The notes beneath the pieces were generated by a model. It searched no databases and was not told the origin of the DNA. It worked only from the letters and a program-made list of their open reading frames with translations. Below, in pieces: positions 9,265 to 10,503 of a stretch of 36,816 bases of DNA; the first letter of the stretch is position 1; every line of letters starts with the position of its first letter. A program made the position numbers and the translations under genes. Source of the DNA: a virus; the IMG/VR virus record IMGVR_UViG_3300035698_033253. One strand, 5' to 3'.

Positions 9265-10503
9265 ATGAGTTATTTGTGGACTAGTGAAGCTGTAGCCGCA
9301 GGACATCCTGACAAAGTAGCGGATCAGATTGCAGATGCAATTTTGGATTCTTATTTAATAGAAGATCCTTTATCGAGAGTGGCTTGCGAAGTTGTCGTTA
9401 CTAGGTCTGATGATTGGCGAGGCGGTCGAGAAGGTGATACGGTAATTGTCACTGGGGAAATTGCATCTAAAGCACTTCCCAATTTAGAAAGTGTAATTAG
9501 GGAGACTTTGCTAGAAATAGGATATGATCGTCCCGAGAATGGTTTTGATGGGAACACCTGCAAAATTCAATTTTTACATCGAGAACAATCTGGCGAAATT
9601 GCATCTGCTGTTATTAAGGAAACAGGGGAAATAGGTGCGGGCGATCAAGGATTAATGTTTGGCTATGCGTGTGACGAAACACCAACTTTGATGCCCCTGG
9701 CTCATTATTTGGCTTTTGATATAATAAATTTAATTGAAGAAGATATATTAAGGGGTCGTGAGGGAGTTGAGTGGAAAAGTTCTTTTTTGCCTGACGCTAA
9801 ATCTCAGGTAACTATAGAATATTCCGATCAAGGAATACCAAAAAGAGTTCACACCGTTGTTGTTTCTGCTTGTCATCGTTCTGATGTTTCTATCGAGCAA
9901 ATTCAGTCAGAATTACATGATCTAATGGTGCTTAGCGAGTCCCATCCTCTAATATCGAACCTTTTTGACGCCAACACCGTCTATCATTTTAATCCTGGTG
10001 GTGCTTGGCATCTAGGTGGACCTGCTTCCGATACGGGATTGAGTGGTCGGAAAATCGTAGTAGATAATTACGGAGCCGATTGTCCGATAGGTGGAGGTTC
10101 ATTTAGTGGAAAAGACCCCACAAAAGTAGATCGCAGTGCCGCATATGCAGCGCGACATATTGCTAAAAATATTGTGGCTGGTGGTTTTGCTAAACGAGCC
10201 AGAGTCCAGGTGGCTTATGCCATCGGATTGAGTGAGCCAATGTCTCTTAGAGTTCAGACATTAGACACATTTGGCACATCAAAATATGATGATAAAACAC
10301 TTACCAAAATGGTTCAGGAAAATGTGCCAATGACTCCGGCAAAAATTATTGATAGGTTGGATTTGCGAAAACCAATTTATCGAAAAACTGCCTCGGGTGG
10401 GCATTTTGGAAGAGAAGGTTTTTCATGGGAGGCTTTAGATTTAGTAGAAATTTTTAATCAATATATGAGTGGTCGGTGTGACAACGCCCATCCCAAGAGC
10501 TAA
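9265..10503 (+). CDS. metK: S-adenosylmethionine synthetase (methionine adenosyltransferase)
   Basis: N-terminal TSEAVAAGHPDKVADQIADAILD, GAGDQG signature (EIGAGDQGLMFGYA) and GGGSFSGKDPTKVDRSAAYAARHIAKN C-terminal signature. GAGGAG Shine-Dalgarno. Confidence 0.93.
   Translation: MSYLWTSEAVAAGHPDKVADQIADAILDSYLIEDPLSRVACEVVVTRSDDWRGGREGDTVIVTGEIASKALPNLESVIRETLLEIGYDRPENGFDGNTCKIQFLHREQSGEIASAVIKETGEIGAGDQGLMFGYACDETPTLMPLAHYLAFDIINLIEEDILRGREGVEWKSSFLPDAKSQVTIEYSDQGIPKRVHTVVVSACHRSDVSIEQIQSELHDLMVLSESHPLISNLFDANTVYHFNPGGAWHLGGPASDTGLSGRKIVVDNYGADCPIGGGSFSGKDPTKVDRSAAYAARHIAKNIVAGGFAKRARVQVAYAIGLSEPMSLRVQTLDTFGTSKYDDKTLTKMVQENVPMTPAKIIDRLDLRKPIYRKTASGGHFGREGFSWEALDLVEIFNQYMSGRCDNAHPKS

What the first reader, a model, noticed from the sequence alone, without database searches (positions are those of the whole stretch)
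9265..10503. Virus-encoded SAM synthetase (MetK)
This is a full-length MetK with all signature motifs, sitting in a phage-like context. The same element also encodes a radical-SAM enzyme (20906-21880).

SAM is a known battleground, for example phage SAM hydrolases acting against host restriction. A phage-borne SAM synthetase could sustain SAM-dependent viral enzymes or counter SAM-depleting defences.
Basis: partly seen in the sequence, partly recalled or inferred. Interest (0 to 1): 0.5.

Follow-up and report, generated by a model that had tools for sequence, protein, structure and literature searches.

The report
Huge-phage SAM synthetase gene (metK)
This is an intact gene for the enzyme that makes S-adenosylmethionine, carried by what looks like a very large bacteriophage; it is real, but virus-borne copies of this gene are already well catalogued, so it is a new example of a known thing.

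Summary
ORF 9265-10503 (+) encodes a 412-aa MetK. It has all three Pfam MetK domains and scores above the NCBIfam equivalog cut-off (431 vs 309 bits). All 16 catalytic or ligand residues checked are conserved. The predicted fold matches solved MetK structures (TM 0.89/0.95).

The context is viral rather than chromosomal:
- 17 tRNA genes, a sigma factor and an NAD ligase lie in the window.
- A vault-protein-like gene is shared with curated 462-735 kb phage genomes.
- Seven independent contigs (10.9 kb to 633,754 bp) show the same gene order (sigma70, JAB, ThiF, ~115-aa protein, MetK; six of them also the w10830 homologue); one is in IMG/VR.
- No capsid or terminase gene lies in the window.

MetK seems inherited vertically in this lineage. 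Synonymous sites are saturated while dN is 0.18-0.45, and codon usage matches its neighbours.

Viral metK is not new. PHROG 1569 covers it, 138 GenBank phage records and at least 598 IMG/VR contigs carry it, and Kieft et al. described it as an auxiliary metabolic gene.

The likely role, keeping SAM available for SAM-dependent enzymes such as the radical-SAM protein at 20906-21880, is inferred. The "counter SAM-depleting defence" idea has no support.

Verdict: new member of a known kind, low interest.

The parts
9265..10503 (+). metK coding sequence: 412-aa methionine adenosyltransferase (SAM synthetase), stop codon included
   Evidence: ORF list and translation. Three Pfam MetK domains. TIGR01034 at 431 bits against a cut-off of 309. 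PHROG 1569 at E 1.7e-107. Catalytic residues conserved. AlphaFold2 model pLDDT 89.6, TM 0.89/0.95 to PDB 5t8s_A.
9255..9260 (+). Shine-Dalgarno-like GAGGAG, 4 nt upstream of the metK ATG
   Evidence: Read directly from the sequence.
9406..9435 (+). Lineage-specific 10-residue insertion (SDDWRGGREG, residues 48-57) in the turn of an N-domain beta-hairpin
   Evidence: Alignment to E. coli MetK and to PDB chains. A shorter 5-residue insertion sits at the same place in P0001, P0002, P0007, P0014 and P0021. It is modelled as a loop between strands 38-48 and 57-67, with lower pLDDT of about 70.
8496..9231 (+). Two small co-directional genes (107 aa, Cys-rich; 135 aa, N-terminal hydrophobic segment). 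They lie between the strong terminator at 8443-8475 and metK, and are probably in the same transcription unit as metK.
   Evidence: ORFs. No Pfam or PHROG match. The 135-aa protein has homologues directly upstream of metK in L001 and L088; the 107-aa protein has one in L002/L003. Terminator scan. Co-transcription is inferred.
8443..8475 (.). Strong G+C-rich hairpin (15 pairs) with T-runs on both strands. It is a terminator-like boundary between the JAB/ThiF/117-aa genes and the metK unit.
   Evidence: Terminator scan: 19 sites found against 7.2 expected, and this one has the longest stem.
20906..21880 (+). Radical-SAM enzyme of unassigned subfamily (324 aa). It is the only SAM-consuming enzyme recognised in the window.
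   Evidence: PF04055 at E 9.6e-19. The best NCBIfam matches (MoaA, PqqE, viperin-like) are all far below their cut-offs. Homologues of 56-61% identity occur in four IMG/VR contigs, also near tRNA genes.
4656..8419 (+). Conserved upstream block that marks the lineage: sigma-70-family factor (4656-5246), unknown 289-aa protein (5239-6108), JAB/MPN protein (6224-7318), ThiF/E1-like protein (7321-8064) and a 117-aa protein ending in Gly (8066-8419)
   Evidence: Pfam and NCBIfam. The same order occurs upstream of metK in seven related contigs.
10830..11810 (+). Conserved unknown protein downstream of metK (56-65% identical in relatives), with paralogues at 5239-6108, 31175-32011 and 35128-35961
   Evidence: tblastn of window ORFs against related loci. 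No family or PDB match.
12665..15238 (+). 857-aa major-vault-protein-like protein. It is the link to curated huge-phage genomes.
   Evidence: PF11978 MVP_shoulder at E 4.9e-23 and Vault_3. 40% identity over 81% of its length to LR756501/LR756503 (735 kb) and LR756500 (462 kb), E 2e-152. Ten IMG/VR contigs of up to 470 kb carry a homologue.
20605..36386 (+). Dispersed array of 17 tRNA genes, all on the + strand, interspersed with small ORFs and an HNH endonuclease. This is a viral-context marker.
   Evidence: ARAGORN. Rfam tRNA model: 15 matches above the gathering score. HNH. A similar tRNA run follows metK in the 633-kb relative L086.

Best explanation
The gene encodes a catalytically competent bacterial-type methionine adenosyltransferase, which converts ATP and L-methionine to S-adenosylmethionine plus PPi and Pi. 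It sits in the genome of a huge bacteriophage. In one lineage of such phages it is a stably inherited gene at a fixed position, downstream of a sigma-factor / JAB / ThiF / small-protein block. It is not a recent pick-up from a host.

During infection the phage most likely makes its own MetK so that SAM stays available or rises. This matters because most bacteria are not known to import SAM. The SAM would feed SAM-dependent reactions the phage relies on: its own radical-SAM enzyme, and methylation of DNA and of the many phage-encoded tRNAs.

Shown here: the identity, intactness, fold and conservation of the enzyme, its viral context, and its conserved position. Inferred: expression during infection, its effect on the SAM pool, and which enzymes consume the SAM.
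For: Identity and intactness:
- Three MetK Pfam domains.
- TIGR01034 equivalog at 431 bits against a cut-off of 309.
- All 16 catalytic or ligand residues checked are invariant in the window protein and 16 relatives.
- AlphaFold2 model with pLDDT 89.6, TM 0.89/0.95 and rmsd 1.9 A to PDB 5t8s_A.

Selection and residence time:
- dN is 0.18-0.45 with synonymous sites saturated in all 15 pairwise comparisons of six orthologues.
- GC 0.416, GC3 0.281 and codon-usage r = 0.85 are typical of the window's genes.

Viral context:
- 17 tRNA genes.
- A sigma factor and an NAD ligase with phage-family matches.
- A vault-like protein shared with curated 462-735 kb phage genomes and with ten IMG/VR contigs.
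- Relatives carry SmpB, RRF, IF1, Ro60/vWA, RNA ligase and HU.
- The only cellular-database relatives of the linked ThiF gene are MAG contigs spread over unrelated phyla, at no more than 50% identity.

Fixed position in a lineage: the same gene order occurs in contigs L001, L002/L003, the P0003 contig, L086 (633,754 bp), L087, L088 and the IMG/VR contig L140.

SAM consumer on the same element: the radical-SAM gene at 20906-21880.

Precedent: viral metK is described as conserved, under purifying selection and expressed in a lake metatranscriptome (Kieft et al., bioRxiv 10.1101/2021.01.05.425418).
Against: - No capsid, portal, terminase or tail gene was recognised in the 36.8-kb window or in the fetched flanks of relatives, so viral status rests on indirect markers and on IMG/VR's classification of one relative.
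- No methyltransferase or other SAM-cycle gene was found in the window, so the proposed consumers are thin.
- The radical-SAM gene was not found within 10 kb of metK in the relatives, so the two genes are not demonstrably coupled.
- Bootstrap support for the wider 17-member MetK clade is weak (30%). Only the inner group is well supported (82-92%).
- Activity and expression were not measured.
Confidence: 0.8

Rival explanations
1. The region is cellular (a bacterial chromosome or megaplasmid) and this is simply the host's housekeeping metK.
For: No virion hallmark gene was found in the window. Relatives of the neighbouring ThiF gene occur in contigs deposited as bacterial MAGs. Sigma factor, NAD ligase and glycosyltransferases are also cellular gene types.
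Against: - Most of the main ORFs scanned have no family match.
- 17 tRNAs are interspersed with tiny ORFs and an HNH gene, with no rRNA or ribosomal proteins.
- The vault-like gene is shared with circularised huge-phage genomes.
- The MAG hits are scattered over Saccharibacteria, Planctomycetota, Acidobacteriota, Binatia and even an archaeal bin, as expected for mis-binned phage contigs. None is an isolate genome and none has metK nearby.
- 80 IMG/VR viral contigs carry the linked cassette, and one (L140) carries the whole arrangement including metK.
- A genuine cellular homologue (Phaeobacter P0033) sits among gltBD and other housekeeping genes and is only 56% identical.
Confidence: 0.04
2. 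The phage MetK is a counter-defence or competition device. It would restore SAM when a host defence or a rival phage's SAM lyase/MetK inhibitor depletes it, or it would be an inhibitor-insensitive replacement for host MetK. The lineage-specific hairpin insertion might alter a binding surface.
For: SAM is a documented point of conflict: T3 SAM lyase both cleaves SAM and binds and inhibits host MetK. The window protein has a 10-residue surface-loop insertion, shared in shorter form by close relatives.
Against: - No SAM-depleting host defence and no anti-defence role for phage MetK turned up in the literature searches.
- Raising SAM would, if anything, help SAM-dependent host R-M and BREX.
- The insertion is variable in length and absent from several lineage members (P0003, and others), so it is not a conserved functional feature.
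- The other substitutions seen (F230W, A261S) are subfamily traits shared with a cellular MetK.
Confidence: 0.08
3. The gene serves organosulfur re-routing, the auxiliary-metabolism view of Kieft et al. MetK would pull methionine into the methyl cycle towards homocysteine, cysteine and sulfide, rather than supplying SAM for phage enzymes.
For: This role is proposed for viral metK in general. A relative (L088) carries an APS kinase about 6 kb downstream of metK.
Against: No mtnN, luxS, ahcY, dcm or cysteine-synthesis gene was found in the window or in the flanks of the relatives. The pathway argument in the paper is itself inferential.
Confidence: 0.07
4. MetK works with the neighbouring small C-terminal-Gly protein, ThiF/E1 and JAB genes as a protein-thiocarboxylate route to homocysteine/methionine and then SAM. 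From my own recall, this resembles HcyS/HcyF/HcyD in Wolinella and CysO/MoeZ/Mec in Mycobacterium.
For: The cassette sits 0.8-6 kb upstream of metK in the window and all seven lineage contigs. The 117-aa protein ends in ...AGQKG, a C-terminal glycine as in sulfur-carrier and ubiquitin-like proteins (read from the translation).
Against: - Of 80 IMG/VR contigs with the JAB-ThiF cassette, only one has metK within 10 kb, and none of 29 GTDB MAG loci does.
- A strong terminator separates the cassette from the metK unit.
- No PLP-dependent sulfhydrylase (MetY/CysM type) is present.
- The closest named families for the cassette are the mobile-element PRTRC proteins, not biosynthetic ThiF/MoeB, and those matches are below cut-off.
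Confidence: 0.02

Closest known systems
Bacterial MetK / methionine adenosyltransferase (TIGR01034; Pfam PF00438 + PF02772 + PF02773; e.g. E. coli MetK PDB 7ll3, N. gonorrhoeae 5t8s)
   Same: Three-domain architecture, all catalytic and ligand residues, predicted fold (TM 0.89/0.95) and a score above the equivalog cut-off. It is 46% identical to E. coli MetK.
   Different: It is encoded on a viral element. It has a 10-residue loop insertion (residues 48-57) and a roughly 12-residue disordered C-terminal tail. It belongs to the Trp248/Ser279 subfamily, also seen in a cellular Phaeobacter MetK, rather than the Phe/Ala type of E. coli.
Virus-encoded metK as an auxiliary metabolic gene (PHROG 1569; Streptococcus Javan-type prophages, Faecalibacterium phage FP_Brigit, Microcystis phage Mel-JY01; Kieft et al. 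2021)
   Same: It is a full-length MetK on a phage genome with conserved motifs and purifying selection. It matches PHROG 1569 at E 1.7e-107. 138 GenBank phage records and at least 598 IMG/VR contigs carry homologues.
   Different: Most of those are the Phe/Ala type, whereas this one is the Trp/Ser type. Here the gene is a positionally conserved component of a huge-phage lineage, not a moron in a temperate phage next to a methyltransferase.
Huge phages of Al-Shayeb et al. 2020 (Mahaphage clade; LR756500, LR756501/LR756503)
   Same: Shared 857-aa vault-like protein (40% identity, E 2e-152), tRNA arrays, a phage sigma factor and translation-related genes in relatives; one relative contig is 633,754 bp.
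   Different: Apart from the vault-like protein, only two of the other window ORFs tested gave weak matches in the about 40-kb stretches fetched around that gene. By counting the record categories, the duplicate 735-kb records LR756501 and LR756503 cannot both hold a metK match, so that genome appears to lack one. Clade membership could not be tested because no terminase or capsid gene was available.
Phage T3 SAM lyase (gp0.3)
   Same: It is a phage gene that acts on the host SAM pool.
   Different: It has the opposite effect and an unrelated fold. T3 destroys SAM and inhibits MetK to disable SAM-dependent defences, whereas this gene makes SAM.

Membership tests
MetK / methionine adenosyltransferase (TIGR01034, Pfam S-AdoMet_synt_N/M/C) | Three consecutive S-AdoMet synthetase domains covering the whole protein | tested here: met
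   PF00438 covers residues 3-109, PF02772 covers 122-247 and PF02773 covers 250-389. Each spans nearly the full model.
MetK / methionine adenosyltransferase (TIGR01034, Pfam S-AdoMet_synt_N/M/C) | Score above the curated equivalog cut-off | tested here: met
   TIGR01034 at 431.4 bits against a cut-off of 309.4, E 2.8e-129.
MetK / methionine adenosyltransferase (TIGR01034, Pfam S-AdoMet_synt_N/M/C) | Catalytic, metal-binding and substrate-binding residues (E. coli H14, D16, K17, E42, E55, Q98, D118, D163, K165, D238, R244, K245, K265, K269, D271; GAGDQG and GGGxFSGKD motifs). The residue list comes from my knowledge of the E. coli enzyme literature. | tested here: met
   All are identical in the window protein and in 16 relatives. 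The adenine-stacking F230 is Trp (still aromatic), as it is in a cellular subfamily. The E. coli reference sequence was checked as 100% identical to PDB 7ll3_A.
MetK / methionine adenosyltransferase (TIGR01034, Pfam S-AdoMet_synt_N/M/C) | MetK fold (three beta-alpha-beta-beta-alpha-beta domains) | tested here: met
   AlphaFold2 model with pLDDT 89.6 and pTM 0.90. Foldseek top hit 5t8s_A at E 7.7e-50, TM 0.89/0.95, rmsd 1.9 A. All top 50 hits are MetK/MAT.
MetK / methionine adenosyltransferase (TIGR01034, Pfam S-AdoMet_synt_N/M/C) | SAM synthesis activity and a dimer or tetramer with active sites at the subunit interface | not testable with these tools
   This needs an enzyme assay and oligomer analysis. 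Only a monomer was modelled.
Virus-encoded metK (auxiliary metabolic gene; PHROG 1569) | Sequence membership of the phage protein family | tested here: met
   phrog_1569 at E 1.7e-107, covering residues 4-389 and profile positions 2-345 of 346.
Virus-encoded metK (auxiliary metabolic gene; PHROG 1569) | Located on a bona fide viral genome, flanked on both sides by viral genes | tested here: inconclusive
   The indirect evidence is strong: the tRNA array, the vault-like gene shared with curated huge phages, conserved synteny including IMG/VR contig L140, and translation-factor genes in relatives. No capsid, portal or terminase gene was identified in the window or the flanks.
Virus-encoded metK (auxiliary metabolic gene; PHROG 1569) | Retained under purifying selection | tested here: met
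   dN is 0.18-0.45 while dS is saturated (above 2 or not computable) in all 15 pairs of six orthologues. Only an upper bound on dN/dS follows.
Huge phages / Mahaphage clade (Al-Shayeb et al. 2020) | Genome of at least 200 kb | not testable with these tools
   The window is a 36.8-kb fragment. Contigs with the same metK arrangement reach 131, 168 and 633,754 bp.
Huge phages / Mahaphage clade (Al-Shayeb et al. 2020) | Placement in the clade by terminase or capsid phylogeny | not tested
   No terminase or capsid sequence from this lineage was available. The only link is the 40%-identical vault-like protein.

The most novel reading that the evidence does not exclude
In this lineage of huge phages, metK is a fixed core gene that makes the infected cell independent of host SAM synthesis. 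It would replace host MetK after host shut-off, or serve hosts with weak SAM supply. It would specifically feed a phage programme of SAM-dependent RNA/DNA modification, namely the radical-SAM enzyme embedded in the tRNA array and methylation of the phage's own tRNAs. On this reading it belongs to the phage's expanded translation toolkit rather than being a generic metabolic booster.
Probability: 0.2. Interest if true: 0.45.

Novelty: new member of a known kind. Interest (0 to 1): 0.2.

Why it matters
As a catalogue entry it adds little, because phage metK is already annotated in many genomes and discussed as an auxiliary metabolic gene.

The modest added value is the lineage-level picture. A divergent MetK subfamily is held at one genomic position across phages whose contigs reach 634 kb, with synonymous sites saturated. 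That argues for a long-standing need for self-made SAM in very large phages.

If experiments showed that huge phages depend on their own SAM supply, for example for tRNA or DNA modification, it would extend the idea that they carry their own gene-expression infrastructure. It would also contrast with small phages such as T3 that destroy SAM.

Tried and rejected
- Exact-sequence look-up of the window MetK in the assembly index found nothing on record.
I got round this by scanning with an alignment of the linked ThiF gene, which found the one IMG/VR lineage member, L140.
- A tblastn search of 16 unannotated window proteins, concatenated into one 2830-aa query, against GenBank phages gave only a few weak hits (DUF5662 and a JAB fragment). 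The w10830 protein gave none.
- A numeric dN/dS could not be obtained because dS is saturated or not computable.
- I looked for a terminator after metK. The hairpin plus T-run at about 10590-10634 folds no better than shuffles (z = -1.38), so it was rejected. Sigma-70 promoter-like hits are at chance level, 22 against 20.6 expected.
- F230W and A261S were considered as phage-specific active-site changes. They were rejected because 110 of 201 aligned homologues have both, including a cellular Phaeobacter MetK.
- A functional coupling of metK with the JAB/ThiF/small-protein cassette was considered. It was rejected as unlikely because only 1 of 80 IMG/VR loci and 0 of 29 MAG loci with the cassette have metK nearby.
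- PDB sequence searches for the 117-aa protein and for w10830 gave nothing significant.
- Literature searches for a phage SAM synthetase as anti-defence, for MetK in jumbo phages, and for SAM-depleting defences found no relevant paper.
- The radical-SAM protein could not be assigned to a subfamily. All NCBIfam hits are far below their cut-offs.
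Full report
**1. The observation**

The ORF list contains exactly the reported frame: 9265..10503 on the + strand, ATG start, 412 aa. A GAGGAG Shine-Dalgarno-like element lies 4 nt upstream.

Family assignment is clear:
- All three Pfam S-AdoMet synthetase domains match over nearly their full models, at E 3e-30 to 4e-57.
- NCBIfam TIGR01034 (metK, equivalog) scores 431 bits against a cut-off of 309.
- 45 solved MetK/MAT chains match, the best at E 2.6e-99.

I aligned the protein with E. coli MetK. I had typed that sequence from memory and then verified it as 100% identical to PDB 7ll3_A. The 16 catalytic and ligand-binding residues checked are all conserved: H14, D16, K17, E42, E55, Q98, D118, Q119, D163, K165, D238, R244, K245, K265, K269 and D271. 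They are also invariant in 16 close relatives.

An AlphaFold2 model built on a 34-sequence alignment has pLDDT 89.6 and pTM 0.90. It superposes on N. gonorrhoeae MetK (5t8s_A) with TM 0.89/0.95 and rmsd 1.9 A, and all 50 top Foldseek hits are MetK/MAT.

Departures from the E. coli enzyme are minor:
- A 10-residue insertion (SDDWRGGREG, residues 48-57) sits in a beta-hairpin turn of the N-domain and is modelled as a loop.
- A short disordered C-terminal tail is present.
- Trp replaces Phe230, and Ser replaces Ala in GGGAFSGKD. These two substitutions are not phage-specific: 110 of 201 aligned homologues have both, including a cellular Phaeobacter MetK.

The insertion varies in the relatives (0, 5 or 10 residues).

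The radical-SAM ORF at 20906-21880 is also real (PF04055, E 9.6e-19). It cannot be assigned to a subfamily, because the MoaA, PqqE and viperin-like NCBIfam hits all fall far below their cut-offs.

**2. Is the context viral?**

Features inside the window:
- Coding is compact and almost entirely on one strand: 27.0 kb on + against 4.0 kb on - in the main ORFs.
- Most ORFs have no Pfam or PHROG match.
- The window holds 17 tRNA genes, all on the + strand. They are interspersed with small ORFs and an HNH endonuclease, and there is no rRNA.
- It also holds a sigma-70-family factor, an NAD-dependent ligase that matches phage ligase families, several glycosyltransferases and an M23-peptidase-like protein.

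Links to known viral sequences:
- An 857-aa protein with major-vault-protein shoulder and repeat domains (12665-15238) is 40% identical over 81% of its length to genes in LR756501/LR756503 (735 kb) and LR756500 (462 kb), at E 2e-152. The 735-kb genome is the largest of the huge phages described by Al-Shayeb et al. 2020.
- Ten IMG/VR viral contigs of up to 470 kb carry a homologue of this protein.

No capsid, portal, terminase or tail gene was recognised in the window. That is the main gap.

**3. Relatives and synteny**

The closest MetK homologues in the large protein collection are metagenomic: 73% (P0001), 66%, 64% and 60% identity.

I looked up the encoding contigs of P0001, P0003, P0007, P0021, P0065 and P0096. 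All show the same order:
- sigma-70 factor
- homologue of window ORF 5239-6108
- JAB/MPN protein
- ThiF/E1-like protein
- a protein of about 115 aa
- a few variable genes
- MetK
- later, a homologue of window ORF 10830-11810

These contigs are 10.9 kb to 633,754 bp long. Their flanks carry SmpB, ribosome recycling factor, IF1, Ro60/vWA, RNA ligase, HU and cold-shock genes, and one has a run of 12 tRNAs downstream of metK. Such translation-related genes are among the expanded repertoires Al-Shayeb et al. report for huge phages. tblastn of all window ORFs against these loci confirms the shared block.

I then scanned IMG/VR with an alignment of the lineage's ThiF proteins. It found 80 viral contigs of up to 527 kb with the JAB-ThiF cassette. 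One of them, L140 (84.5 kb), has the entire window arrangement including MetK (56%) and the 10830 homologue (61%).

The same alignment scanned against one genome per GTDB species found only MAG contigs, at no more than 50% identity. They are binned to many unrelated phyla, including an archaeal bin. None is an isolate genome and none has metK nearby. That pattern fits mis-binned phage DNA rather than a chromosomal locus.

**4. Evolution of the gene**

A neighbour-joining tree of 201 homologues places the window protein with P0001 (bootstrap 92%) and with P0001-P0003 (82%). The wider groups of 9 and 17 sequences have only 50% and 30% support. However, the sampled members P0021, P0007, P0065 and P0096 share the synteny, which is independent evidence of common descent.

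Among six orthologues, dN is 0.18-0.45 and dS is saturated. This indicates purifying selection over a long time.

GC, GC3 and codon usage of metK are typical of the window, so the gene is not a recent insertion.

Other high-scoring homologues lie in different huge-phage-like contexts: P0022 on a 116-kb contig and P0028 on a 374-kb contig, both with PARP/WGR and P0022 also with RNA ligase. One (P0033, Phaeobacter, 56%) lies in a clearly cellular context. The nearest identifiable cellular MetKs are thus about 55-57% identical.

**5. What is already known**

Phage metK is well documented:
- The protein matches PHROG 1569 at E 1.7e-107.
- 138 GenBank phage records carry a homologue, about 90 of them Streptococcus prophages. 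Others include Faecalibacterium phage FP_Brigit and Microcystis phage Mel-JY01, many annotated as S-adenosylmethionine synthetase.
- At least 598 IMG/VR contigs encode one.
- Kieft et al. list metK among abundant viral auxiliary metabolic genes. They report conserved motifs, dN/dS below 1, separate clustering from bacterial homologues and expression in Lake Mendota.
- A prophage metK has been studied genetically in Streptococcus agalactiae.

The class is therefore known.

**6. Mechanism and rivals**

Shown: an intact MetK with the full catalytic apparatus, under purifying selection, at a fixed place in a huge-phage lineage.

Inferred: it is expressed during infection and keeps SAM available for SAM-dependent enzymes. 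The only such enzyme seen in the window is the radical-SAM protein. It lies between tRNA genes, and its 56-61% homologues in four IMG/VR contigs also lie near tRNAs. A role in tRNA or nucleotide modification is possible but untested. No methyltransferase was found in the window.

The anti-defence reading has no support. I found no report of a SAM-depleting defence or of phage MetK as a counter-defence. The documented case, T3 SAM lyase, lowers SAM and inhibits MetK to disable SAM-dependent R-M and BREX.

I also considered a pathway link between MetK and the adjacent JAB / ThiF / C-terminal-Gly protein cassette, by analogy with protein-thiocarboxylate methionine biosynthesis (recalled from my own knowledge). 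Four points argue against it:
- The cassette occurs without metK in 79 of 80 IMG/VR loci and in all 29 MAG loci.
- A strong hairpin terminator at 8443-8475 separates it from the metK unit.
- No sulfhydrylase gene is present.
- The cassette's closest named families are the mobile-element PRTRC proteins, and those matches are below cut-off.

**7. Verdict**

The finding is real and its identification is correct. The element is very probably a huge phage. Functionally, this is a new and divergent member of the known class of virus-encoded metK genes.

Its only distinctive aspect is stable, position-conserved inheritance in a lineage of very large phages. Interest is low (0.2). The most novel reading still open is that metK is part of a SAM-dependent modification programme tied to the phage's translation toolkit; I give that a probability of about 0.2.

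Noticed in passing
window 5239-8419 (plus terminator 8443-8475): A cassette of an unknown 289-aa protein, a JAB/MPN protein, a ThiF/E1-like protein and a 117-aa protein ending in ...AGQKG, whose C-terminal glycine suggests a possible ubiquitin-like or sulfur-carrier protein. There are weak, sub-threshold NCBIfam matches to PRTRC_A and PRTRC_ThiF. The JAB-ThiF pair occurs in 76 of 80 IMG/VR loci retrieved with the ThiF gene (contigs of up to 527 kb) and in about 17 GTDB MAG contigs from unrelated phyla. It looks like a widespread huge-phage ubiquitin-like/E1/deubiquitinase-type module of unknown role.
   Followed up: partly
window 5239-6108, 10830-11810, 31175-32011, 35128-35961: Four paralogues of one unknown protein family lie in a single 36.8-kb window. 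All four hit the same gene next to the JAB gene in related loci. The 10830 copy is 56-65% conserved across the lineage. None has a Pfam, PHROG, NCBIfam or significant PDB match.
   Followed up: partly
window 12665-15238: An 857-aa protein with major-vault-protein shoulder and repeat domains. It is conserved at 35-41% identity in curated 462-735 kb phage genomes and in ten IMG/VR contigs, and at 63% in the close relative L001. This is a eukaryote-type vault-protein homologue in huge phages, of unknown function.
   Followed up: partly
window 20605-28402 and 36314-36386: 17 tRNA genes lie on one strand, including three tRNA-Lys(UUU), two tRNA-Asn(GUU) and two tRNA-Gln(UUG). Rfam also reports a tRNA at 27383-27469 that ARAGORN did not list. 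The order (Met, Trp, Gln, Asn, Thr, Lys...) resembles the array in the 633-kb relative L086.
   Followed up: partly
window 20906-21880; loci L136-L139: The radical-SAM gene is flanked by tRNA-Met and tRNA-Asn genes. Its 56-61% homologues in four IMG/VR contigs (71-169 kb) also sit within a few kb of tRNA genes. This hints at an RNA- or nucleotide-modification role, but the subfamily is unassigned.
   Followed up: partly
proteins P0086, P0089, P0094, P0095, P0116; locus L106 3392-3745: Some MetK homologues (about 500 aa, 54-57% identical) carry an N-terminal DUF6717 (PF20475) fusion. A free-standing DUF6717 gene lies about 4 kb upstream of metK on a 116-kb huge-phage-like contig. This is a possible functional partner of phage MetK.
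   Followed up: no
window 1828-3784 (-), 28490-30525 (+), 32008-32793 (-), 34616-35116 (+): Four glycosyltransferase genes, a DUF5672 protein and a nucleoside 2-deoxyribosyltransferase-like protein are present. They suggest sugar or nucleoside modification functions on the element.
   Followed up: no
window 67-1317: The NAD-dependent DNA ligase ORF matches only the C-terminal two-thirds of the family profiles (OB fold, HhH and BRCT domains, plus the last about 50 residues of the adenylation domain). It begins 66 nt from the window edge, so the gene is probably cut by the window start or mis-started at TTG.
   Followed up: no
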